This document shows, in pieces, positions 1-25,060 of a DNA stretch of 64,000 nt (position 1 is its first letter; each line of letters begins with the position of its first letter). The translations under genes and the position numbers were made by a program. The DNA comes from Fimicolochytrium jonesii (lineage: Eukaryota). Where the stretch lies: contig NW_026515670.1 of the NCBI RefSeq assembly GCF_025526975.1, positions 1,488,001-1,552,000 on the forward strand. The letters run 5' to 3'. Under the pieces are notes generated by a model, which saw nothing but the letters and a program-made list of their open reading frames with translations, was not told the DNA's origin and searched no databases.

Positions 1-262
1 ACTGGGGATGGGGTGGCTACGCTGAGGCTGTGGGCGGGTACGTGGGGAAGTATGGAGAAGGGTTTGTAAGCGCCGAGTGTTGGGAAATGTGGCTACGTGC
101 GGCTGCGTGGAAAAATGAAGGCAGTGGCAGGTGTGGGGTAGCGCGGCTGCGTGCGGCTGCGAGGTTTGGCAGATGTCAGGTTTTGACAGGGAATTGACAT
201 TGACTGACTGTTGGGATGCTGTCATGAGGTAAGCGCATGGTATGGACGCGTCGTCCATAACA
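1..262 (-). repeat. 3' LTR (partial) of the chromovirus
   Basis: Direct repeat of 5342-5603. Starts TGTTATGG on the minus strand straight after the PPT. Confidence 0.96.
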
Positions 263-276
263 TCACCCCCTCCTTT
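263..276 (-). promoter_or_regulatory. Polypurine tract (plus-strand primer)
   Basis: AAAGGAGGGGGTGA on the minus strand immediately before the 3' LTR TG. Confidence 0.85.
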
Positions 277-3200
277 AGCCACGGCGTCCGGATGTTGTTT
301 TGATGTTGGCAGGCTTTGGTCGGGGTTTGTCGTGGTACTTTTGGTGGAACTGGGCAACAAGCTCTTGACAGCGGGCAAGGTGTTCCACTGGCTCCCATGT
401 GTTCTCCGAGCTTGGCCAACCCTGCCACTTGATGAGGTACTGAAGGTGCGTGCGTCGAATACGGGAGTCAAGAATGTCTTCCACAATCTATTCCTCCTGT
501 CCTTCGACTTCTTCTGGTGGGGTGGGTTCTGGCTCAGTTCGCTCCGGAATGGTGAAACGTGGTTCAAGAAGGGAGACATGGAAGACGTTGTGAATTTTGT
601 AGGATGGGGGAAGCTTGAGGCGATATGTGATCGAGTTGATCTTCTCCGTGATTGTGAAGGGGCCAATCTTACGGTGATCAAGTTTCTGGGAAGGTCGGAG
701 AGTCTTGAGATTCCGTTGTAAGAGCCAGACACTGTCCCCGGGTTTCATGTCTGGGCCAGGTGCCCTCTTAGCATCGGCAAAGCGCTTCATGCGTCCTTGG
801 GCCTCCTTGAGCTCAGTGGCAAGCTGTTCATGGATTTCCTTGAGATGGTTGGCACGAGCTTCGGCTGCAGGATTAAGGGATTCGGTTGTGGTGGCGGAAG
901 CCAGACTGAATCGAGGATGGAACCCATAGTTGGCGTAGAAGGGGGTTGTCTGGGTGGCGGAGTGGATGGTGTTATTGTAAGAGAACTCAGCAGAAGACAA
1001 GAGTTCCTTCCAGTTATCTTGTTGATAGTTGCAAAAGCAGCGAAGGTATTGCTCAAGAATCTGATTGGTCCGCTCGGTTTGTCCATCGCTCTGGGGATGG
1101 AACGCCGATGAGAGGTTGACCTTGGTTCCCAGGAGAGCGAAGAGACGTTTCCAGAAGTGGGGGTTGAACTGTGGGCCACGGTCAGATACAATATCGTTGG
1201 GGAGTCCATGGAGCCGGATGACATGGTGCCAGATCAGATCTGCAGTTGACTCAGCGGTGGCAGTTTTCCTGCACGGTACAAAGTGCGCCATCTTGGTGAA
1301 CCGGCAGATGACAACGAGCACAGAATCAACCCCATCACTGGCGGGTAGATCCGTGATGAAGTCCATGGAAATTGACCCCCAGGGGCGGTCAGGGACCTGC
1401 AGGGGTTGGAGGAGACCGTAGGGCTTGTGTCTGCTGGTCTTGGCTTGAGCACATACGTCGCAGGACCTGATGTAGGACTTGACAAAACGCCATTGGCTAG
1501 GCCACCAGTAGTTGCGTGAGATGAGCTCCAGGGTGTTTGACATGCCGTAGTGTCCTGCCAAACGCGTGTCATGCATGTCCCGGCAGATCTCAGCACGGAG
1601 CTTGTTGGTGGGGACGTAGACAAGGTTGTCGTACAGCAGAACCCCATTTTCCTCGGAGAATCGCTTTATCCGTTCTTGGTCTTCTTGAGATTGCTGGGAG
1701 CCCTAAGCTGTCGCCGGATGGTTTGCGCAAACACATCGGATGCCAGGGCAGCTTTGATTTGGTCAAGGAGCGAGGAGTCCAGTGGGGTCAGATAAGTGGC
1801 GGCCAGGCGGAGATGGTCAGGGGTGAGGATCGTGGTTTCCTGGGAGTGGAATGCTTCTTCCCCCTCCCTTAGCTCGTATTCAGAGCGACGAGAGAGGGCG
1901 TCAGCTTGGTGTTGCTGGGTACCAGGGCGGTATGTGATGACAAAGTCGAAATCAGCAAAGAAGATTGACCAGCGGGATTGGCGGCGGTTGAGGGTACGGG
2001 TAGTCATGAAGTACTGGAGGTTCTTGTGGTCACAGTAAACGATGACCTTGTGGCGGGCACCAATGAGGTGGTGTCGCCATTGAGCAAATGAGTCTTGGAT
2101 AGCCAGGAGTTCCTTGTCATAGATCTCATAGTTGATTTCCTCAGGAGTAAATTTGCGGGAGTGAAAGGCCACGGGGTGGAGTTGATCTGTGTCGTTGGGT
2201 TGAAGGAGGACGGCGCCAAGGGCAAAGTCGGAGGCATCGGATTCGACAATGAAGGGCTTGTCAGGGTCGGGGTGAGTCAGGATAGGTGCGGAGGTGAAGG
2301 CTTTCTTGAGGGTTTCAAAAGCTAGGTGTGCAGCGTGGGTCCATTTGAATGGCAAGTCTTTGCGAGTGAGCGTGGTCAGGGGTGCAACGATCGCAGAGTA
2401 CCCTTTGATGAATCGCCGGTAGAAGTTGGCAAAACCAAGGAAGCGCTGGATGCCTTTGACATTCGTCGGGGGTTCCCATTCGGTAATGGCAGCCGTCTTC
2501 TTTGGGTCCATGGAAATGCCTTGCTGGGAGATGATAAACCCCAGGAACTCAACAGAGTCACGGTTGAATTCGCATTTTTCCGGTTTCGCATACAGCCCGT
2601 GCTGGCGGAGCCGTGAGAGCACCTCTCGGACGTGGTTGGGGTGGTCTTCTGGGTTTTTTGAGAAGATCAGAATGTCGTCAAGGTAGACCACAACAAAAAC
2701 GTCGAGAATGTCACGGAATATGTCGTTCATGAGGTGTTGGAATACTCCAGGGGCATTGGTGAGCCCAAACGGCATGACATTATACTCGAATAGGCCGTAG
2801 CGACATCGGAACGCTGTCTTCCATTCATCCCCTGGCCGGATCCGAAGAAGGTTGTAGGCTCCCCGGAGGTCAATCTTGGTGAGCCGGCGTGCCCCTCGAA
2901 GACGATCCACGATGCTGTTAATCAAGGGCAAGGGATAGCGATTCTTGATGGTGATATTGTTGAGTCCACGATAGTCGACGCACAGACGGAGGGAACCGTC
3001 CTTTTTCTTGACAAAGAGGACTGGGGCACCGGCGGGAGACTTGGAGTGCTTGATGAACCCCTTAGCTAGGTTCTCTTCAAGGTAGTCACAGAGTGCCTGC
3101 ATTTCAGGCTCGCTGAGACTATAGATCGGGCCGAACGGTGGCTGTTTGCCCTCTTCTAAGTCGATGGGACACTCGTAGGGTCGGTGCTCTGGGAGGGTAT

Positions 3201-4122
3201 CCGCGTTCTTCTTGGCGAAGACGTCCGCAAAATCTTGGTATTCTTCAGGAATGATGGCCTTCGGATCTTTTGGAGGAGTGGTCGCCAGGGCTTGGGAATC
3301 TGACTTGGTCGGATTGGCGTAGGCAATGAATGCCTGGTCATGCCTTGCCGCCACACGGAAAGCTGGGGCGCTGATAAACGATACGTGGATCGGTGTGGGT
3401 GCTGGGTCCAGTGTGTTGGGTGTCTGGGCTAGGGAGACTGAAATCTCGTCTTGATGGATACGGATCAGAGGTTCAGGGGTTCTTGAGGGCTTTGGGCTAG
3501 GTTCTGTTGGCAGGGCATCCCAGGAGGCGTATTGTCCAAAACCGCAATGGCAGCGGACGCAAAGAGTGCGAGTCTTCCGGTGTAGCTCCACATCATGGAG
3601 CTCAAACCAGGGAAGCCCCAGGATGATTGGCGCATGCGGGGAACATGTCACATGGAATACCATCTCCTCAAAATGGTCGTTGACCCACATGCCCAAAGGT
3701 TGGGTGTGATGGGTAATGGAGCCCGCATGGCTGGGACGTCCGTCAACCAGTTCAAGCGCAATGGGGTCCTCCTTCTTGACAAGTGGGATGCGGTGCTTGC
3801 GGGCATAACTTTCGTCGATGAAGCACAACATCGCACCGTTGTCAAGTAGTGCTGAAAGCTGAACTGGAGCTCGCTGGGCCGATATCTGCAGGGTAACAGG
3901 GTACTCAAATGGTGAGGATGGGCCCAAAATCCGCATGGGTGCGGGTATCTCAGATCGGAGATTGACATTGTTGGTGGTCAGGAGAAGGGTGTTGCTGGAG
4001 ATGCCAGGATCGGAGCAAGGTTTTGTGGCTTCTCCCTTGGCAGTACTTGCGTGGTGAGAAGGCCCAGGACAGGTGTTGCCCAGCTGCTCGGCCTTTACTG
4101 CAGCTGGACTTGGGCAAAATCC
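275..4122 (-). pseudogene. pol: pol polyprotein (protease, RT, RNase H, integrase, chromodomain), disrupted
   Basis: Protease LLDNGA (canonical D-S/T-G altered). RT YLDDILIFS. RNase H ESDASD..LGAVL. Integrase HDTRLAGH..CDVC, SMDF, SDRG, GQTERTN, GPF. Chromodomain QYLIKWQGWPSSENTWEP. Frameshift near 1670-1700 and in-frame TAG at 488-490. Confidence 0.93.
4059..4122 (-). promoter_or_regulatory. Putative -1 programmed ribosomal frameshift signal (slippery heptamer plus H-type pseudoknot)
   Basis: G GAT TTT at 4122-4116, a 6-nt spacer, stem GTCCAGCTGC/GCAGCTGGGC, and loop AAGGCC pairing with downstream GGCCTT. The pol frame is open in -1 from this point. Confidence 0.75.
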
Positions 4123-5021
4123 TGGATGGGTGCAGGTTCCTTAACCGCGACATTCGCCGTGCGTATCTTGTTTGGGCAGAGTTTGGCTATGTGGCCAGGT
4201 TTACCACAATAGAGGCAAAGTTTGTTTGTGATGCGGTGTTGGCGCTCTAGCGGTGTGAGGGGTCCTCGCGGACGAGCAGCGTCAATGACCATAGGGTCGT
4301 CTGGGCGGTTGTCGGGGCTCATAAGGGTGGGGCTAGTGGTAACTGGCACATATGGCTGTCGGTTCCTGCTTTGCTCTAGACGGCGCTCAAACAATCGGTT
4401 GTCACATTGGATGGCCTGTTCCATCACGGTGTCGATTGAGGCGGTAGGGGGCATCGTGAGCATTAAGTCCTTGACGTCTTCTTTGAGGCCGCGACGGAAG
4501 GTGGCAATCAATGCCTGGTCATTCCACGACACATCGCATTGCAGCTGTCGGAATTCAGCTACATACTCTGTTGCTGCACGGGTTTGTCGAAGGTTCTGGA
4601 GCTTGTTTTCGGACGTGCGGATCCTGTCGCTGTCTCCAAAGACTGCTTGCATTTGCTGGATGAAATCATCCAGGTTCGTAAGGGAATGATGGTCTTGTTC
4701 GACAAGGGGCGCCAGCCAGGCCTGGGCGGTGCCAGTGAGGTAGGTGCCAATAGTTCGTATCTTGGTCTGATCGTTGGGGTAGCGCCTGGGTTGGAGGGCG
4801 AACATGAGCCGGATCTGGTTGAGGAACCCACGGAACTTGCTTCGGGTGCCATCAAATTTGTCTGGGAGACTGATTTTGGGTTCGGGGGCGTGAGTGGCAG
4901 GGGCAGTGGTCTGGGTTTGCGCTAGTTCGGCTTGTAGGGTGGTATTCTGCGCTCGAAGTTCGTCAATCGCATTGCACATGGCTTGCCAGGCTTCGGCCGT
5001 GAGGGGAAGGGCGTCGGACAT
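4095..5021 (-). CDS. gag: Gag (Ty3 capsid-like domain plus CCHC zinc knuckle)
   Basis: PEPKISLPDKFDGTRSKFRGF capsid motif and CLYCGKPGHIAKLC knuckle. First ATG at 5021 (the ORF track starts at GTG 5042). Confidence 0.93.
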   Translation of the reverse strand: MSDALPLTAEAWQAMCNAIDELRAQNTTLQAELAQTQTTAPATHAPEPKISLPDKFDGTRSKFRGFLNQIRLMFALQPRRYPNDQTKIRTIGTYLTGTAQAWLAPLVEQDHHSLTNLDDFIQQMQAVFGDSDRIRTSENKLQNLRQTRAATEYVAEFRQLQCDVSWNDQALIATFRRGLKEDVKDLMLTMPPTASIDTVMEQAIQCDNRLFERRLEQSRNRQPYVPVTTSPTLMSPDNRPDDPMVIDAARPRGPLTPLERQHRITNKLCLYCGKPGHIAKLCPNKIRTANVAVKEPAPIQDFAQVQLQ

Positions 5022-5072
5022 GGTGATTTGGCGTGGAGGCACAGCGGCTGGGGGTTGTTGAGCAGATCAAAC

Positions 5073-5603
5073 TGTTAAGAATGGGCAGAGCCGACGGAAA
5101 TAGAGGCGACTTGTGGTGCAGGTTGTTGACAGGTAATGGTATTCAGACCGAAACAAGAACTAGAACAAGACTAGGAAGAACTGGTGTTGATCTGCTGGGG
5201 GATCAGGAAGTGGGGAGCTCAGGGGAGGCGGCTATTTATGCTTTTCTGGGAAGGCTGGGGAAGCGTGGGGAAGCAGAAGGGTACGGAATGAGAGGGAAGC
5301 CAAGAGAAGCGCCAAGGGTGGGGGAAGCATAGAAACAGAAGACTGGGGATGGGGTGGCTACGCTGAGGCTGTGGGCGGGTACGTGGGGAAGTATGGAGAA
5401 GGGTTTGTAAGCGCCGAGTGTTGGGAGGTGTGGCTACGTGCGGCTGCGTGGAGAAATGAAGGCAGTGGCAGGTGTGGGGTAGCGCGGCTGCGTGCGGCTG
5501 CGAGGTTTGGCAGATGTCAGGTTTTGACAGGGAATTGACATTGACTGACTGTTGGGATGCTGTCATGAGGTAAGCGCATGGTATGGACGCGTCGTCCATA
5601 ACA
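5073..5603 (-). repeat. 5' LTR (531 bp) of the chromovirus
   Basis: Inverted TGTTA/TAACA termini, TATA-like ATAAATA at about 5238-5232, and a match to window bases 1-262. Confidence 0.92.
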
Positions 5604-5719
5604 GGCAGGTGCGGACCATGATTAGCCAAAAGAGGAAGCCGCAGGGGGGGGGGGGGGGGGTTCCGCTTCCTGTTGCCCGGGGGGGGGGGGGGTGGATAAA
5701 TATACAGGATGCAACTCAC

Positions 5720-6829
5720 CTAAATATGGCATTGCGTCCACCGCGAGGCTGTACGCAAGCAGCTCATCCTGGGGAGGAAACAGAGCCCATAACTCGTCGA
5801 GATGGTCCGCTCAAGTCGTGTGAGGCGCGCAAGCTCCTCTTCGGTTGGGTACTCTTCAAACGTCGCGTACTTTGTAAATTGACGGACACGACGATAATAG
5901 TGTCGCCGCTGCCCTCTCAGGAGATGCAGTACAACTTGCTTCAAACCAAGCCTTTCATTGACGTAGCGCAGAAACATTTGCATGAAATGCTCTTGTACGT
6001 TAACTTTGAGGTTTGTGAGGATGCTCGTAGCCGTGTACGCTGCGGTCTGTTGGCAATTTCGCATGCGGATGGGGGCGAATCCGTGAACATTACAGTACTC
6101 TTGAACCCGGCCGCAACTCTTGCGCGATGACCGGATTGCCGTTGTAGCCTGGATTGTTTAGTAGCTCAAATATGACACTAATGTGCTTGTCGGTGATGTC
6201 CGGGAAATCGTGTAGAGGATGATCAGCTGTGGTGGGGTGGGCAGATGTAGTAGTCAGGACATTGTTTCAAGGGAAATATACAGTGTAGTGTGCGCCAAAA
6301 ACTCACCAAGGTAGTACTTCAGGAAGAAGGTGGTGTGGCGCGCAAGGATGTGAACATTGCCGATGAATGTTCTCAGGCGCTCCCTTTGAACTTGATTCTG
6401 ATGATTCTGATTATGGATTCGATGAAGAGAAACCTTGGTGCAGGCATGCGTCTGCGGGCGGGGCCGTTGAGCAGGGGGTGGAGGCGGGGGTGGAGGCGGG
6501 GGTGGAGGCGGGGGTTCAAGCACCAGGGATCCACCCGGTGTGCTGGGAAAAGGGAAAGGATAAGAGCGGGGAGGTTCAACGGACGCTGCAGACCCCTTTC
6601 CACAGGTGAAAGCCCTCGCTGTTGGTGCTGCCCGTGTCATCGCCGGAACTCTCGCTGACCATGTCTGCAATGGCTTCGGGCAAGTGGCGCTGGACAGACG
6701 GTGGGAACTGGAATCGCGGGGGTTGCAAAGGTGTCTGCACAGTTGGCAGACGTATGGGCAACCGCGGGGTAACCGGAGCAACCTTCCTCCTCTTCCGCCG
6801 TGGTGTGGTTGATCCAGTAAATATGCCAC
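5720..6829 (-). pseudogene. Fanzor1 (eukaryotic TnpB/Cas12-like OMEGA nuclease), N-terminal WED/REC portion, spliced and frameshifted
   Basis: Reconstructed peptide: THACTKVSLHRI..RERLRTFIGNVHILARHTTFFLKYYL|ADHPLHDFPDITDKHISVIFELLN..VQEYCNVHGFAPIRMRNCQQTAAYTATSILTNLKVNVQEHFMQMFLRYVNERLGLK..LTRLERTI/LDELWALFPPQDELLAYSLAVDAMPYL. This is colinear with the Spizellomyces punctatus Fanzor1 N-terminus as I recall it (TNLKVNVQEHFMQM motif). Intron at 6227-6306, frameshifts near 6107 and 5800, next intron donor at 5719. The recognisable core is 5720-6451. Confidence 0.85.
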
Positions 6830-7546
6830 ACCACAGGTACCCCTGGAGCGCTTGGTGTGATGACATGATGACTGTGCTGTGCCTTAAGTCAGTCGAGAGA
6901 GGTGTTGCAGTTGATTGCCGTGATACCTGTGTGTCAAAGAACTCGCGTCAGTGCTGTGGTCATGAAGCTGAAGACGGTGAGGAATTGCGGTTGTTACCTG
7001 GTGGCGGTTGAAGGTGAAAACGGGGATGCTTACTGCTCACAATAATTGCGTTGGGAAGGAAGGGGGTTGGGAAGGAGTAGAGTGGGGATCCCACGTTTTT
7101 TACACGCGTGTAAAGGATGTGAGGTAGCTTCCAGGGCAGCTAGCTGGGCAGCGAGGGTAGCTTCTGGGGTTGATTTTGGCTCGAGCTCTCTCTTTCCCTT
7201 ATCCCCTGGATGCATGCGCCATTTGCGCGAACCCAGGTCTCTGCCCTCATCGTGCTGTGGAACTCGTTACTTTTATTCCCCTTCACACACACCACTCGTT
7301 TTATAGACGTTCGATCGGACAGTCTGCACACACCAGCTTTCTAACTGCAGAGAGGAAAAGGGGTACGGTACTATAAAAGGAAGCTGTGGCTGAAACAGGT
7401 TGTTTTACAACACTCCCTCTCAGACTGCAGATCGAATTCAGTCGCCGTCGAAGTCGCAGTCGCCATTGCTCCGCATCCTGATCTCATTGAACGTTCCGCT
7501 CTCAACTTCCGCGATTGCTTGAGTCCAGCGAGGAGTAGTCGCCGGG

Positions 7547-7740
7547 CTCGCGATTCGCTTTTCAACTTCAAGTCAGGATCGCTTGAGGTGTAGCCTGGAT
7601 ATGGGCACTCGCGATTCGCTTTTCAACTTCAAGTCAGGATCGCTTGAGGTGTAGCCTGGATATGGGCACTCGCGGTTCGCTTTTCAACTTCAAGTCAGGA
7701 TCGCTTGAGGTGTAGCCTGGATATGGGCACTCGCGGTTCG
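7547..7740. repeat. Tandem repeat, 61-bp unit, about 3.2 copies
   Basis: Units start at 7547, 7608, 7669 and 7730 (CTCGCG(A/G)TTCGCTTTTCAACTTCAAGTCAGGATCGCTTGAGGTGTAGCCTGGATATGGGCA). Confidence 0.97.
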
Positions 7741-8227
7741 TTATTCATCTTCCGCCATCGCCTCGCCGTCATAGTCGTGGATGTCTCGGTAAAAACCTCT
7801 CCCAGTCGTAAAAAAAAACCTCCGTGAGGAAAAAATAGATCCTGGGAGTAGGAAAAGAGCGCATCGTCGTATCAGGCAACATCGGCAGTTCGGCGTACTC
7901 ATTGTCATCGGGCAACATCGGCTGTTCGACGCAATCCTAGAGCGTGAACAAATTTCCAGTGTTTGTTTTCGTCTAGGGATTTGGTAAATATATCCGCAAC
8001 GTTGTCGATATATTTGTCAATATATTTTTCTTCTCGAGTGACATATAAATAACAGATAACCCTAGCCCCTTCCCTTTCCTTTCCTTTATCTCTTTTGAGC
8101 TATCGAGTGCTATGGCTGAAAGCTACGGTGGGAGGGGGGGATGTTCCGATGAAGAACTATATCGGGAGCGCAGTTTCTATGTACAAAAAACCCACATTCC
8201 GCTCACAACCACATGTTCACGAAATCC

Positions 8228-8570
8228 TCACTCTTCATCGCTACTGCTATCGCTGCTATCGCTGCTATCGCTATCACTCCCACTCTCCTCCTCCTCCCCA
8301 CCCTCCTTCGTTTCCTCACCCGTCTCCGCCTCACGCAGCGCCGCCATCGGAGTATTCCCCCTCTCCCACCCACCCCTCTGCACCACCTCCCACGGCCCGC
8401 CTTTATCCAGATTAACCACCCACAGATCATCCAAGGTATGCTCCGACTTCTTATCCTCAAACAGCCCGCCGTAGAGTATCAGCTGAGACTTGTAGGTAGC
8501 CAGCATCGCGTTGTAGCGGGGGTGGGGCTGGGACGGGTCTATCGCCGCGGGGGTCGCTGCCGCTGGGAGG
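8228..8570 (-). pseudogene. KEL3: Orphan 3' fragment of a Kel3/KLHDC4-like kelch-repeat gene
   Basis: PHPRYNAMLATYKSQLILYGGLFEDKKSEHTLDDLWVVNLDK (last kelch blade) plus an acidic tail. No upstream exons recognisable in the window. Confidence 0.7.
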
Positions 8571-8963
8571 ATTTCTCTTATGTACACTCTGCCCCCCCAG
8601 AGAACGCCCCTTGTCGGATTTGACATTCCATCTCAGCGTCAGATGGGTTGATGTGGTGTAGAACTTCCTCAGCTGTACTTTCGGTATGGCTCCGAACTCA
8701 ATCTGGGAATCGCGGTTGGCCAGACACGTCGCCAAGGCCCGTCCGTCACATCAGGAAAATCCTACGTACTGTCAAGTTCCGGCAACGGTTGCTCCTATCG
8801 ATTTCATTGCTAATATGCATCACAAGCGCAGCAGGCACAACTACGATACTCTTTGCGAACCACTTGCGGCGACGTCGAGGCTTTGCAGATTTGTCAGGGC
8901 GAGTTATGGCCGATAAACGACGGAGACCAGATCGGGACGCGCCCGGCTGTCTACTCCCAAACG

Positions 8964-17795: not shown

Positions 17796-18646
17796 CTACT
17801 TGTGGAGTCCATCCATACGCTTCCTTGCGAGCGCAACGTATTCAGCGTTCAATTCGAATGCGAGATATCTACAGCCGGGAAGTCTACAGCATGCCATTAT
17901 CTCTGTCCCGGCCCCTGCAAAGGGAATGAGAACATTGGTTTGCATGCTTCTTCAGTATGCATAGCACTCTTGACAAGCCGTTCGGTTAGCTGCAACGGTT
18001 TTTGCGAAGGATGGGCGACTCCCTCTGATTTGCCGCAAGCCCCGCTCAACGCTGAGACTTTCATTACGTCTCGAGGCAACGCACCGTCCTCATGGATGTT
18101 GTAGGTGGTTGCAAGACTCCTTGAGTTGATACGCCCTGTAGAATCAGCAGCTCGGACCCGGCCGGGGCTGTACTTTTTGTATTCTTCAGTTTAGGCTTCC
18201 CGGACCAGATCACGATTGAACTTGGATCCAGGGAAGCGACAGAAAAGGATGCTTTCGTGCGACCGCTGGAAGGTCTTCGCCTTTGGATTGGTCTTATTCG
18301 TGTAGTGCCAAACGAGCCAGTCCACTTTCCAAGTGATGGCTTTATTACTGTGTATACGGGCAAAGATAAGGGCTAACGTGGTGGATAGGCCATAGATGTA
18401 ACATGTCCCAGTCTTTTTGAGAACACGGTGGCATTGCAGGATCCACTCTTCGCACCAAGCGAGATAGTCGTCCTCCTTCCTCTTATCGCTATCGTTACCA
18501 AAGTCCTTCCCAAAGTTGTAAGGCGGGTCACAGATGATGAGATCGGCTGACTCGGCAGGGACAGAATTGAGAGCCTTGACACAATCAGTGTGGTATATTG
18601 TGCTGTCATAGGCGTACTCTAGTACAGGTACAGGATGCTCTGTCAT
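17796..18646 (-). pseudogene. Beta-class DNA N4-cytosine/N6-adenine methyltransferase, intronless, disrupted
   Basis: DLIICDPPYN (motif IV) precedes HPSQKP and VLIPFAGAGT (motif I), then AFELNAEY. In-frame TAA at 18191-18193 and frameshift near 17938. Confidence 0.92.
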
Positions 18647-18707
18647 GTCTGCTATCTGCTATCTGATATCTGATATCTGATTCCTACTATAGGCGCCTTG
18701 GGGTGTA

Positions 18708-19572: not shown

Positions 19573-20817
19573 TACACCGATGGCTTTCCCATTCCATCTG
19601 CTCTTAGCGCATTGCAAAGGAGAAGTCGTGGTTAATCTTCTTTGCATATCCAGCGTCTATAGGGCGGTTACCCAAGCGGACGTGGTCAGGGCCTACCCAA
19701 CCGGTCAAGATATCACCAAGCTGCCAAGAACTCTATGGACAACGTATATCCGCCTAGGCAGGGCAGACGTGCAGAACGCTATAGAGCGGGCGGTAAAACA
19801 CGCGCATCTGGATGCGATAAAGCTCCTTCTCTCGTCATGTCCCGATGCAACCTACGCCACCCTGCTCAGCAAAGTTGGGCCCCTTGAGTGTGTGGGTGAT
19901 GATGGCGAGCTTGAGCTGTTGAACTCTCCCCTCGCACATGCTAGCCGCTTGGGTAATCTGGAGACGATCAAGTTTCTGGTATCTATCGGTGCTGACGCGA
20001 ACGATGATCCATATGCATTCTCTGACGCATGCTCTTCCGGTCACCTACATGTTGTTGAGTTCTTTGTTCGCATCGGAATCAAGGATTGCAGAAGACGGTG
20101 GAGCTTCCTATACGCGTGTTTTGAAGGGCACCTGGACGTCATACAGTATCTCGTGATGCAGGGCTGGCAGGTCGAATCTGAATGCATCGGCTGGGCAATA
20201 AAAGGCGGAAGCCTCAGCACTCGTAGAGAACAGTCAGAATACCTCCATATCATTAAGTATCTCATTTCAGTGGGAGATGCTCTGGACTTCGACAACATCC
20301 TGAAGGACGCAATACGGGATGAGGCTGATTTGGAGATTATCAAGTATCTACGGTGCCGTTCATAAAGCAAGGCCCGCTGTCAATTTAATTCACCGGCTCC
20401 CTGGACGCGCCTCTCCATGATCTACGCCTAGTATCTAGTGAATGGATTCCGTTTGAGGTTGTGCTTACTAAAGCTTCTTTTCTTTCACTCAAGCGAAGAT
20501 ATAAATACATACAGCTCCCCATCCCCCCCCTTCCCGTCTATCTCTTTTTCGCTCGAGCAAAATACCTACGGATCATCGGAAGCACAACGTCCTACACACC
20601 CCAGACTAAGCATTTGCTCTCAATCCTTTTACAATTAGCCTGTACTCACGGCAAATTCTGCCTCCTTCACGCACAGAATCCCTTGCACATACACAAATGG
20701 TACGGGCAGCGCCGCAAACGGCGTTTGAAAAGGTTTTCACCCAGAGTGCACTAGTCACTTCGTGAGAAGCGTTGAGCCTAACAACCTCATACCATTCTCA
20801 GCCCAATTCTCAACACA

Positions 20818-21282
20818 ATGTCAGAAACCCAGAACTCGTCGGACATTCAAAACCCGTCAGACATTCAAAACCCGTCGGAGCTATCCAACCCAGAACAACT
20901 AGTCCACGAAATTGCGACGCAGCTGGCCGAGGAACTCGCTGCTGAGGAACAAAAGCCCATCCGCCTCGCCCGTGAAGAGGTGGACGTTCTCGCCCTCGAA
21001 AAAGAGCGTCTCGCAGAGGAGAATGCTTGCCGCCGCAACCTACTTGCCCGTCGTCGTGAGCAGCTAGCTCAAACCTTGCCTGCCTCGACGAACGACAGCG
21101 CCCACGACGGTACGCCCCTTGCCTCTCCCGTCGCGGGCAAAGACATGGATTATGATCACTTGGCCCGTAAACGCACCAAGGCCATTCTCCAACCCGGTCA
21201 GGACATCCCCATGAAACAACGCACCGTCGCCGACCTCATCAGTGACGACGGGGTTATCTACAAGATAGTGCCCCCAATGTAA
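20818..21282 (+). pseudogene. DIRS ORF1 (gag-like), truncated by an LTR insertion
   Basis: First ORF after the left ITR, with coiled-coil character. Its stop codon falls in the first bases (TGTAA) of the LTR at 21278. Confidence 0.65.
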
Positions 21283-21668
21283 CGTCAGAGGAAACGTAGA
21301 CAATATTGGGCCCTTCTGAGAGGGCTGAGAGCAGTGTATTGTAGTGAAGAAAAAAGTAAGAAGCTCTTCGCAGCAGCCGCTCGACTGACAGTTTTATATA
21401 TGGGCTGCCAGCGGGGCTTGCGTGGCTTTAGTGAGGCTTGGCGCCTTATGTAATGTATCACCGAGAGCTCGGGTGGCCAGCCCGGGTCTCGGATCAAGTA
21501 GAAGTAAAGAGATATAATATGAAATACAAGTGAAGATGAGATATCCCCAACACCTCCCTCAGATCCTGAGGAGGGCGCTGAATAAATAAGAGGTGAACTA
21601 CGAGGGATATGTGAAGAAAGGGAGAGCTCATGTTCATTTTAAAGTGTTGACGCACTTGTTCATTTTAT
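21278..21668 (-). mobile_element. Copia-like 3' LTR (21278-21552) with PPT and a short internal remnant
   Basis: On the minus strand TGAGGGAGG is followed by TGTTG...TTACA (275 bp) with an internal TATATAAAA. The superfamily is inferred from the termini and PPT only. Confidence 0.6.
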
Positions 21669-22193
21669 TGTTATGATCTCGACGACGGGGCGGAAGCAAA
21701 GTAGAGAAGACAGGGCAAGTGTGATAGGCGACAAGAGATTGTATTGGCGAAACAAGAAACAAGGACTAGAACAGGAGATGAGAAGAACTGGTGTTGATCT
21801 GCTGAGGAGGAAGGGAATGGACGAAGAGAGGCCGGCTATTCATAGATAGGCAACCCAGCAGATCAGAGAACAACAACAACAAGAGGGGACTGGGGGGCGC
21901 CAGCTATGCTCCTAGAGCATGCGTGGCGAGCGTAGAGAGCATTGCTACAGCTGCTGGCTATGGGGAAGCAGTGGGGGGTGTGGAGAAGCCAAGGGGGGAT
22001 TGGCGAACTGAGAGGAGAGAGGAGGAGTGGCGATATTGCAAGAGGATTGGCAAAATGAGAGGAGAGAGGGGGAGTGGCATTGACACTGACATTGACACTG
22101 ACATTGACATTGACATTGGCGTTTGACATTTGGCGGTTGACATTGGCGGCTGTCAGTAGGTAAGCTTATGGTATGGGCGCATCGTCCATAACA
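21669..22193 (-). mobile_element. Solo LTR related to the chromovirus at 1-5603
   Basis: TGTTA...TAACA termini, 525 bp. Shares GAAGAACTGGTGTTGATCTGCTG and GGTAAGC..ATGGTATGG.CGC.TCGTCCATAACA blocks with 5073-5603. Flanks TTTAT and CGAAC do not form a TSD. Confidence 0.88.
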
Positions 22194-23239
22194 CGAACCA
22201 CAAGTACCAGTCGTCCTGGAAGTACTTCAGTATGTGGTGTACTGAACAGCGTCTCGATCCCATTTGCGCCACCGATTTGGACGTGGTGAATCACCTTGCC
22301 TTCCTCCATCATAACGGGAAAAGCGTCAAAGTCATTGAAAGCGCGCGGTCCACAATCACCAGCACCCTCACGCTCCTTTCACCGCCCCGCCCCTTCCACC
22401 GCTCGTACCTCGCCCAGTCGATTGTAAAGGCAATGCATCTGAGAACTGGCCCCCAAAAGAAGGCCTACACAAAGATATGGAATCCGGCGACGCTGGGGAA
22501 TTATGTCGCCTCGTCAGAGGTGGACTGGAATGAGCTGCGTGCAGTGAGTCGTCGATTAGCCGTCATCATCATGCTGACTAACAAATGCCGGCCGAGCCAC
22601 TTGGCAAACCTCCATCACAACCGGTGCAAGGTGCGCCCATCTCACCTAGAACTACGATCGTGGCGACCTAAGGAATGGCGATATCAACATCAACATGGGG
22701 AAGAGGTCTTTGAAGGCCACGACTACCGCGTTATCACCGTCGCTCGCATTCCCACTCGCAACCTCGACGTCGGCGCGCTCTACCCTCGAATGATTGAGCT
22801 GCAAGGTACTCGCCGAGCGGGAATCAAGGCAGTCTTCATCAACATGCTGAAGAATTCCCCCATGGCGCCGAATACCATATCCAAACTTGTCGCCACCGCC
22901 ATGCGCGATGCGGGAATTGGTCCCGAATACACGCCGAAATTGATCTCTCACGCCGTCACTACCGCTCAATGCAACGGCGGCGTAGCCACCGAGGCCATCC
23001 GTGCCGGACGCTGGCTCCCCGGCTCCACGGTCTTCGAAACGCATTACACCATCCGCAACGACAACGGAAAGGTGCCCTCCGATGACGACGACAGCAGCGA
23101 CGTCAGCCCACGAGACTGCAGTCGCCACCTACTTCAACACGGCAGCCGCGGCGCTCACTACATTGACGAATTAGCACAACCTCGAACGGAATCCATTATG
23201 CTCTGGACGAGGAACGTAGTGCATGAGTTCAATGGATGA
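22194..23239 (+). pseudogene. DIRS tyrosine recombinase, 5'-truncated
   Basis: Frame is open from the LTR edge (NHKYQSSWKYFSMWC). Contains CRPSHL (Arg), RPKE (Lys), AGRW and FETHY (Tyr). The H-x-x-R position reads KLIS. Confidence 0.85.
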
Positions 23240-23941
23240 GGTGAGGTTGTGCTTACTATCCCACCCACCACCCGTAAGCACACCTTCTCCATACTCGCCA
23301 CCGCGCTGCCATTCCGAAACGATGATCACCGGCAATCCCCGACGATGATCACTATTTATCACTATTTATAGGGTTTTTTGGGTTCCCCTGGTGGTACCCC
23401 CACCGAATATGGCGCCCAGTAGAGAAAGGGCGCTCCCATCAACTCCATTCACACCATCCCTTACCCCCTCGGCATTAGCCATTAGCCATTAGCAGTCATT
23501 AGCTCTCGCTCCAAAGAGATAGACGAGAAGGGGGGGGGGGGGGGGATGGGGAGCTGTATGTATTTATATCTTCGCTCGAGTGAAAGAAAAGAAGCTTTAG
23601 TAAGCACAACCTCTCCTCATCCATTGAACTCATGAACTACGTTCCTTGTCCAGAGCATAATCCTCCTCTAGCTGCTATGACTGCCGCTATACGCCGGGGC
23701 ATGCTCGACACAAGGTTTTCCAGCACATCTGGCTCAATATCCTGAAATGTCTGCTGTGCAATGGCTTCTAGCTGCTCTAAAGTTGTCCGGGTTGTCCGGA
23801 GCGTCCGGCCGACGCGGTCGAGCACTTCTCTGACGCCACTGTCAAATGCGGTCTTGCTTTATGAACGGCACTGTAGTATCGCTCGGCGCAAGCCAGGACC
23901 GGATGGGTCTGAACGCTGCATGCGCTCTTTGTTCATGAAAG

Positions 23942-25060
23942 TTACAATTCACTATCAACGGTGGTGATCACCCTTTTCTCCTTTTCGTCCCACCCTCGCA
24001 CGTTGACATCATGTACCACACGAAAGTTGTTGTTACAACAACCAGGATCCTTCTTCCTTGAGGCTTTATCCGCATCACCTACTTTATACCCCATCGTGCG
24101 AAGCAATGCGACGGCCGACGGCTGATGTGTTCCGGCTGCGAAGCTTCTTTCGAAACGGTGAACATGTACGCGTGCGCCAGTAGTCCGCACTGCATTATCT
24201 TCAAGCCACATTGGGAAGGGACTGTTTTCATCTTTTTGCTCCTGGACATTCAGTTCTACTGACCGCGGGACGTGGATATGGCACCCTCCGTGAACATACG
24301 TCGCATAAATCTCCATGAGCATGAGCATAAACTCTGGGCCCCAGGACTCTGCCCGTTCTCCGAGAGTGGCGTCTGCAAGTTTCTCATGGGGTCTGTCGGG
24401 TGATGGATTCTCTGTGAAGATCGTACCGAAATGGATGATCTTGAGACGCCGCCAGATACCACGGATGTCATCATCTCCGCCTTCCATCTTGGGGATGGCA
24501 TTGCATAGGAGTGTGACAAGGAACCGCGGGACATACTCGATGTATGTGGAGCTATGCAGAGTGCGTATACGAACCGGATCTCTGCCGGTTAGAAACTTGA
24601 CGAACCCTGTATTGATTTTCTTTCCTGCTTGGGGTTCACTTGTGAACAAACTGCGTACCGACCGCACATCCATCAGATCCGGATTTGGTCTATCCGCTGA
24701 TGGTCTTTCAGCGGTTAAGAATGTCGCCAAGGGCTCGCGATGAAGCTTTTCTCCGAAGGCTTTGCCCATGAGGTTCTTAAGGAATGACTTGCCATTCATT
24801 TCCTCCAACCCCGGTCCAGATCATAGCAATGGCGTGGCGATTGACTCCCTCCAAACTCAGAGAGAGCATCGTAAGAAGGAAAGTACGGACACATTCGTCT
24901 GGCTGGATATCCGCAAGTACCGAGTTGATTTCTTGTCGCACACTGCCGTCCGAAACGGCCGGAAGTTCGTACGGTATCAATGAGGTAAGGTAATCGGTAT
25001 GTTTGTGCTCTCGCATGGTACAGTTTCTAGCATCAAAGACACCGTTCTCAACCATACGGG
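23942..25060 (-). pseudogene. D5-like SF3 helicase (NCLDV/poxvirus primase-helicase C-terminal part), frameshifted, primase domain absent
   Basis: ENGVFD..R....DYLT, Walker A WTGVGGN/GKS, SEPQAGKKINTGFVKFLTGRD, LLCNAIP, GIWRRLKIIHF. A 4-nt duplication (CATTCATT, 24793-24800) shifts the frame inside Walker A. Confidence 0.92.

What the first reader, a model, noticed from the sequence alone, without database searches (positions are those of the whole stretch)
5604..6829. Hidden intron-containing Fanzor1 (RNA-guided nuclease) gene interrupted by the chromovirus
Seen: three short minus-strand pieces join into one protein through an 80-nt GTGAGT..CTGAC..CAG intron (6227-6306) and two small frameshifts. 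A second GTGAGT intron opens at 5719, and the LTR sits just after its branch-like GCTAAT. Known: the TNLKVNVQEHFMQM.LRY.N block and flanks match, from memory, the N-terminal WED/REC region of Spizellomyces Fanzor1. Inference: the RuvC exons, omegaRNA and transposon end lie left of the window beyond the 3' LTR, and the genome may hold intact spliced relatives. The ORF track does not reveal this gene.
Basis: partly seen in the sequence, partly recalled or inferred. Interest (0 to 1): 0.85.

Follow-up and report, generated by a model that had tools for sequence, protein, structure and literature searches.

The report
Broken intron-bearing chytrid Fanzor1 copy
This is the broken front half of a fungal gene for an RNA-guided DNA-cutting enzyme (Fanzor1), with two predicted introns, four frameshifts and a retrotransposon inserted in it; this copy is likely dead, but its little-noticed family has members that keep the cutting residues.

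Summary
Confirmed, with corrections. The minus strand at 6866-5720 encodes the N-terminal half of a Fanzor1. One open frame hits SpuFz1 (8GKH) at E=2e-16. The spliced read-through is 85-90% identical to four gene models of a multi-copy family annotated as 'uncharacterized' in Fimicolochytrium jonesii. Intron 1 (6306-6227) is the best GT-AG pair by brute force. The chromovirus likely sits about 9 nt before the intron-2 acceptor. Corrections: the ATG is at 6866, and there are four frameshifts, not two. No RuvC sequence lies in the window. The RuvC exons, omegaRNA and target duplication beyond the 3' LTR could not be seen (no genome). Relatives keep the D-E-D triad (10 of 33 models), and one folds like SpuFz1. 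Multi-exon Fanzors (2013, 2023) and Ty3/Gypsy insertions into Fanzor genes (2023) are published, so this is a new member of a known kind. Modest new leads: a family missing from two catalogues searched, two changed TAM-contact residues, and intron sites that differ across the SpuFz1 clade. The scan noted a decayed intron-bearing Fanzor1 before, on other DNA (e1-9795127).

The parts
6307..6866 (-). Fanzor1 exon 1: ATG, low-complexity Pro/Gln-rich N-terminal extension of about 130 aa, start of the WED/REC region; two frameshifts (near 6635, 6564)
   Evidence: (8GKH 405-458, E=0.07 alone); residues 1-129 of paralog P0028 have pLDDT<50
6780..6803 (-). Predicted nuclear localisation signal PRRKRRKV (SV40-like; the label is recalled, not tested)
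   Evidence: translation; same or similar stretch in paralog models
6227..6306 (-). Intron 1, 80 nt, phase 1, at FLKYYL|ADH (SpuFz1 about residue 64)
   Evidence: 16 of 18 paralog models with KYYL read KYYLADH
5720..6226 (-). Fanzor1 exon 2: REC region with the TNLKVNVQEHFMQM block; two frameshifts (near 6107, 5803)
   Evidence: (8GKH, E=2e-16)
5604..5719 (-). Intron 2, 5' part (phase 1, at MPYL|G), branch-like GCTAAT at 5626-5621, cut by the LTR about 9 nt before the inferred acceptor
   Evidence: 14 of 19 models read YLGA(Y/H)C; mis-spliced P0006 reads SAPA-SSQ-VP and the window's intron tail translates to SAPA up to the LTR
5604..5608 (+). Candidate 5-bp target-site duplication, right-hand copy (GGCAG); partner not in the window
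   Evidence: untested
5073..5603 (-). Chromovirus 5' LTR (TG...CA, about 531 nt; inner end inferred from the terminal TGTTA/TAACA)
263..5072 (-). Chromovirus internal region: gag (4095-5066), protease-RT-RNaseH (1666-4140), integrase (488-1702) after a frame change, then a stop and a chromodomain (299-487)
   Evidence: Pfam; frames
1..262 (-). Chromovirus 3' LTR, first 262 nt (3 differences from the 5' LTR); the rest runs off the window

Best explanation
This is a broken, likely non-functional copy of a Fanzor1 gene from a multi-copy chytrid family related to SpuFz1, with two predicted introns, four frameshifts and a chromovirus inserted in the second intron. Shown: homology, exon layout by alignment, frameshifts, LTR position, and no RuvC sequence in the window. 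Inferred from SpuFz1: intact members would be spliced to a protein of about 760 aa with an N-terminal nuclear signal, bind an omegaRNA made from the element's right end, and cut double-stranded DNA next to a TAM with the RuvC D-E-D triad, likely aiding spread or retention of the element. Copies share intron 1, so they likely spread as DNA, not through spliced RNA, with a transposase likely supplied in trans. The LTR likely separates the branch point from the acceptor by about 5.9 kb and brings its own transcription signals in the same orientation, so the downstream RuvC exons would not be joined. Those exons, the omegaRNA and the right end likely lie left of the window (about 0.75). The order of frameshifts and insertion is unknown.
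For: SpuFz1 hit E=2e-16. 19 clusters at 55-87% identity, all named F. jonesii. Spliced read-through 85-90% identical to four models, no stops. Over the exon-2 core the window is 87-93% identical to 10 models, whose pairwise range is 81-94%. Paralog P0003 vs 8GKH E=4e-100. P0028 D497/E656/D731 align to SpuFz1 D383/E541/D606. AlphaFold model of P0028 (pLDDT 76) matches 8GKH at E=1e-52, target TM 0.90. Tree: window plus F. jonesii 100/100, sister to a Gaertneriomyces protein 100/99. tblastn with full-length paralogs found no significant match to the RuvC half in the part of the output shown, which is complete for P0005.
Against: Splicing rests on gene predictions and on colinearity with intronless SpuFz1, not on reads. 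Three of four frameshifts shorten a short repeat, which also fits long-read error; many F. jonesii models are broken too and only 1 of 33 (P0028) runs from the MSSHQ start to the C-terminus. No omegaRNA, TIR or TAM was seen for this family, and activity is untested. Pfam (this copy) gives no Fanzor/TnpB family above cut-off for the window frame or for P0028.
Confidence: 0.9

Rival explanations
1. The frameshifts are assembly errors in a repeat, and the gene was intact until the chromovirus inserted, or is still spliced across it.
For: No in-frame stops. The window's end branch (0.036) is no longer than those of paralogs (0.043, 0.048). Three of four indels shorten short repeats. The LTR copies differ at only 3 of 262 nt.
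Against: Host genes in the window run as long unbroken frames (885 and 1783 aa). The LTR lies between the branch-like motif and the inferred acceptor, so even an indel-free copy would likely not be spliced correctly.
Confidence: 0.2
2. The locus is a 5' fragment only: the RuvC half is not beyond the 3' LTR, because of truncation, rearrangement or recombination between LTR elements.
For: Many paralog models cover only one half; the left flank is unseen.
Against: Two LTR copies 98.9% alike flank a complete gag-pol, which fits one recent insertion; the break lies inside a conserved intron tail.
Confidence: 0.2
3. The family is a domesticated or cut-dead RNA-guided DNA binder rather than a transposon nuclease.
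For: Long disordered N-terminal extension; several introns; SpuFz1 N385 is G and R96, N133 are changed; no ends seen.
Against: D-E-D is kept in 10 of 33 models; tens of similar, often broken models fit a mobile family; G at that site also occurs in other relatives.
Confidence: 0.05

Closest known systems
SpuFz1 / SPu-1 element of Spizellomyces punctatus (PDB 8GKH; Saito 2023 PMC10432273; Bao and Jurka 2013 PMC3627910; 'family4' in Jiang 2023 Data S1)
   Same: About 44% identity for the full-length paralog, same predicted fold, D-E-D triad, zinc-finger cysteines, 4 of 6 TAM-contact and 9 of 13 guide/hybrid-contact residues; multi-copy; Ty3/Gypsy insertions into Fz genes reported there.
   Different: SPu-1 has one exon; this family has at least two predicted introns and probably five. 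It has a 130-aa low-complexity N-terminal extension. R96 and N133 equivalents differ. TIR, omegaRNA and TAM are unknown. The window's copy is broken.
Multi-exon fungal and algal Fanzor1 genes (ROr, AMa, PBl, MCi, CRe families; CrFNuc)
   Same: Spliceosomal introns inside a transposon-borne Fanzor1.
   Different: Other lineages; many are tied to Mariner, MuDR, Crypton, Harbinger or Helitron elements. No transposase ORF was evident upstream here; intron positions were not compared with these.
Soil-metagenome Fanzor1 loci L006, L007, L008/L009
   Same: 41-46% identity to P0028, GT-AG introns, the same DPNKRD / DE(Y/F) motifs.
   Different: They share one intron at the RL(G/D) site, which the window lacks, and they lack both window introns.

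Membership tests
Fanzor1 | Significant homology to a characterised Fanzor1 across the WED/REC region | tested here: met
   8GKH E=2e-16; read-through vs SpuFz1 34% over 246 aa, E=4e-35
Fanzor1 | RuvC D-E-D triad and zinc-finger cysteines, in the window's own copy | not testable with these tools
   The coding sequence in the window stops at about SpuFz1 residue 240; left flank unavailable
Fanzor1 | RuvC D-E-D triad and zinc-finger cysteines, in close paralogs | tested here: met
   10 of 33 F. jonesii-named models have all three motifs; P0028 D497/E656/D731
Fanzor1 | Fanzor1 fold | tested here: met
   Predicted model of paralog P0028 matches SpuFz1, PpFz1 and GtFz1 first; the alignment used held SpuFz1 rows
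Fanzor1 | omegaRNA at the right end of the element | not testable with these tools
   3' end outside the window; no DNA of paralogs on hand; Rfam gives nothing above threshold in 4900-8300
Fanzor1 | Transposon ends (TIR, TA duplication) and TAM | tested here: inconclusive
   No second copy of the upstream region in the window; the left end could not be placed
Fanzor1 | RNA-guided, TAM-dependent dsDNA cleavage | not testable with these tools
   Needs biochemistry on an intact paralog
Fanzor1 (functional gene at this locus) | Intact reading frame after splicing | tested here: not met
   Four frameshifts and an LTR element in intron 2
Chromovirus (Ty3/Gypsy) | LTR-gag-PR-RT-RH-IN order with a C-terminal chromodomain | tested here: met
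   Pfam (PF00385 E=5e-20); a stop precedes the chromodomain
Chromovirus (Ty3/Gypsy) | 5-bp target-site duplication | not testable with these tools
   The left junction is about 270 nt outside the window

The most novel reading that the evidence does not exclude
The window's copy marks an uncatalogued, recently spreading, intron-rich Fanzor1 family that recognises a TAM other than SpuFz1's CATA, and the SpuFz1 clade shows fast intron turnover inside a mobile nuclease gene: one ancestral intron kept in three soil lineages was lost in SpuFz1 and in this family, which gained two to five new ones that every copy now carries.
Probability: 0.4. Interest if true: 0.55.

Novelty: new member of a known kind. 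Interest (0 to 1): 0.33.

Why it matters
The locus itself is a relic. Its value is as a pointer. Close relatives of the best-studied Fanzor editor sit unnamed in a public chytrid annotation, at least one looks complete, and two TAM-contact residues differ, so it is a cheap candidate for a Fanzor with another target motif. Many copies with different flanks would make the omegaRNA and TAM readable by alignment. The differing intron sites across the clade offer a small test case for intron gain and loss in a mobile gene, and show why single-ORF mining misses such genes.

Tried and rejected
No genome is held for the window, so the left flank and DNA of paralogs were not seen. Sequencing runs: none was listed, no RNA holder listed; this is no evidence either way. 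Pfam found no Fanzor/TnpB family above cut-off in the window frame or in nine paralogs (best: Cas12f1-like_TNB E=0.076 in P0006); the precomputed PF26935 label did not come up in those scans. Viral contigs gave only 21-25% relatives (5 loci of 126 pattern matches). Rfam: one chance-level hit. The 3' flank of L008 begins like the SPu-1 right end, but folds no better than shuffles (z=0.03), so I claim no omegaRNA there. Upstream translations in models P0018 and P0019 did not place the left end. The first tree had L008 and the 3' part of L007 out of frame by my error and was discarded; one search replaces it. A Fanzor-tyrosine recombinase partnership was considered from P0047 and rejected: 1 of 33 models, likely a fused prediction over nested elements. 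Earlier findings by sequence and by place: nothing.

Full report
Observation. On the minus strand, an ATG at 6866 opens a gene whose pieces run to 5720. An 80-nt GTGAGT...CTGAC...CAG segment at 6306-6227 is the best of the stop-free GT/AG pairs tested (score 536 vs 365). A second GTGAGT opens at 5719, GCTAAT follows at 5626-5621, and an LTR begins at 5603. A frameshift-aware alignment to four paralogs gives 85-90% identity (297-313 identical of 346-351 columns), no stops, and four frameshifts near 6635, 6564, 6107 and 5803; the unspliced control needs a fifth shift and a 24-column insertion.

Identity. The 144-aa frame 6154-5723 hits SpuFz1 (8GKH) at E=2.1e-16; the next hit is E=0.2. The exon-1 frame hits the adjoining SpuFz1 stretch weakly (E=0.07). 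The read-through aligns to SpuFz1 residues 2-243 at 34%, E=4e-35; its core scores 311 against at most 51 in 500 shuffles. It covers WED/REC only; the catalytic residues named by Saito et al. (D383, E541, D606) lie further on. tblastn with full-length paralogs showed no significant match to the RuvC half in the window; that output was cut in the middle but is complete for P0005.

The family. A search with the window frame returned 19 clusters among 436 candidates, all 'uncharacterized' proteins of the chytrid Fimicolochytrium jonesii. Cluster look-ups and a second search brought the set to 33 models; these are gene models, and some may be pieces of one locus. Over the exon-2 core the window is 87-93% identical to 10 models that are 81-94% identical to each other, and it groups with them at 100/100, next to a Gaertneriomyces protein. 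I did not determine whether the window comes from that genome. Of 18 models with KYYL, 16 continue ADH as the splice predicts; of 19 listed at the second junction, 14 read YLGA(Y/H)C. One mis-spliced model reads SAPA-SSQ-VP, and the window's intron tail translates to SAPA right up to the LTR, so the insertion likely fell about 9 nt before the acceptor. Ten of 33 models keep all three RuvC motifs; one (P0028, 761 aa) is complete from the MSSHQ start. Its predicted structure (pLDDT 76; residues 1-129 below 50) matches 8GKH at E=1e-52. Against SpuFz1 contacts, 4 of 6 TAM residues, 9 of 13 guide/hybrid residues and 12 of 25 scaffold residues are identical; R96 and N133 differ (the R291 column is ambiguous). 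Breaks in other models hint at three more introns downstream; this is indirect.

The retrotransposon. Pfam gives gag, protease (weak), RT, RNase H, integrase and a chromodomain. The LTR copies differ at 3 of 262 nt, so the insertion is recent. The element has a frame change before integrase and a stop before the chromodomain. It points the same way as the Fanzor gene.

Mechanism. Shown: a split, frameshifted Fanzor1 5' half with a chromovirus in intron 2. Inferred from SpuFz1 (PMC10432273): intact members make a nuclear RNP with a right-end omegaRNA and cut dsDNA beside a TAM; shared introns imply spread as DNA. This copy is likely dead twice over. I put 0.9 on 'broken Fanzor1 copy' and about 0.75 on the RuvC half lying beyond the 3' LTR. 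Assembly error could account for the indels; host frames of 885 and 1783 aa are unbroken, but repeats polish worse, and no reads were available.

Intron turnover. A metagenome scan (113 pattern matches, 5 loci) gave three distinct full-length relatives (L006, L007, L008=L009; L010 is a short weak match and was left out). All three have a phase-1 intron at the same RL(G/D) site (56, 176 and 67 nt; for L006 this pair scored second, 579 vs 587 for a nearby alternative). The window is uninterrupted there, and they lack both window introns. They do not form one clade (p-AU 0.018 on a quick LG+G4 tree of 19 rows; I named the group). SPu-1, -2 and -3 have one exon. The simplest reading is an ancestral intron lost twice plus lineage-specific gains; parallel gain is not excluded, the backbone is poorly resolved, and only five lineages have known exon structure.

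What is known. Bao and Jurka 2013 (PMC3627910; passages, supplementary file 1 whole, search of 12 of 14 files) list multi-exon Fanzors in several fungi. Jiang 2023 (PMC10530073; passages, supplement searches) report intron capture up to about 9.6 introns/kb. Saito 2023 (PMC10432273; passages, section 10, supplement searches) report 11 Fz loci with embedded genes, including Gypsy/Ty3 inside the Fz gene. Xu 2024 (PMC11423790) and Yoon 2023 (bioRxiv 2023.08.09.552727) were seen as passages only. The F. jonesii family was not found by name or accession prefix in Saito's files nor by motif in Jiang's Data S1 (all four TNLKVNVQEHF rows look like SPu-1). Limits: cells are cut at 400 characters, two Saito PDFs were unreadable, bioRxiv supplements are closed, and Jiang's files hold no organism names. 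Paper searches 'Fimicolochytrium' (17 papers, 15 listed, titles only, none on Fanzor), 'Fanzor + chytrid' (2), 'Fanzor + Spizellomyces' (10), 'Fanzor + intron' (75, 30 listed), 'Fanzor1 orthologs TAM fungal' (0) and 'intron gain, transposon, Fanzor' (1) showed no description. Fanzor1 relatives are common: 6581 representatives at E<=0.001.

Verdict. A real, correctly identified, broken Fanzor1 copy: a new member of a known kind. Interest 0.33; the leads worth following are the complete paralog and the intron map, not this locus.

Noticed in passing
window 5061-5070 and 5187-5196: The 10 nt just inside the 5' LTR are complementary, in the transcript, to a 10-nt stretch within the LTR, and no tRNA-type TGG primer site follows the LTR. 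This fits self-primed reverse transcription of the Tf1/sushi type (label recalled).
   Followed up: partly
window 86, 87, 112 vs 5427, 5428, 5453: All three LTR differences are G/A transitions in one direction; too few to call a mutator.
   Followed up: no
window 20348-23876: Nested repeats: several inverted-repeat pairs, a tyrosine-recombinase-like ORF at 22160-23239 (39% to the N-terminal part of P0047; Phage_integrase E=0.055) and a diverged solo-LTR-like relative of the chromovirus LTR at about 21756-22193.
   Followed up: partly
window 7256-7411: 156-nt TG...CA segment with TATA-like and AATAAA motifs upstream of the Fanzor gene; solo-LTR-like, but no matching target duplication.
   Followed up: partly
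window 7547-7752: Three near-identical 61-nt tandem copies between a Kelch-repeat fragment (8228-8632) and the Fanzor gene; unexplained.
   Followed up: no
window 18191-18658 (-): ORF with an N6/N4 DNA methylase domain (PF01555, E=9e-23), a family typical of bacteria and viruses (recalled), next to an ankyrin ORF; origin not examined.
   Followed up: no
window 23942-24820 (-): 292-aa ORF that reads like the C-terminal part of a D5-type primase-helicase of large DNA viruses (recalled resemblance); no Pfam hit at E<=0.1.
   Followed up: partly
P0047 (F. jonesii model): Tyrosine-recombinase N-terminal part fused to the middle of the Fanzor; 1 of 33 models, likely nested elements.
   Followed up: partly
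L008 2695-5012: Intact two-intron Fanzor1 (700 aa, no stops after splicing) from a soil metagenome, with a 3' flank starting like the SPu-1 right end; a second candidate live Fanzor1.
   Followed up: partly
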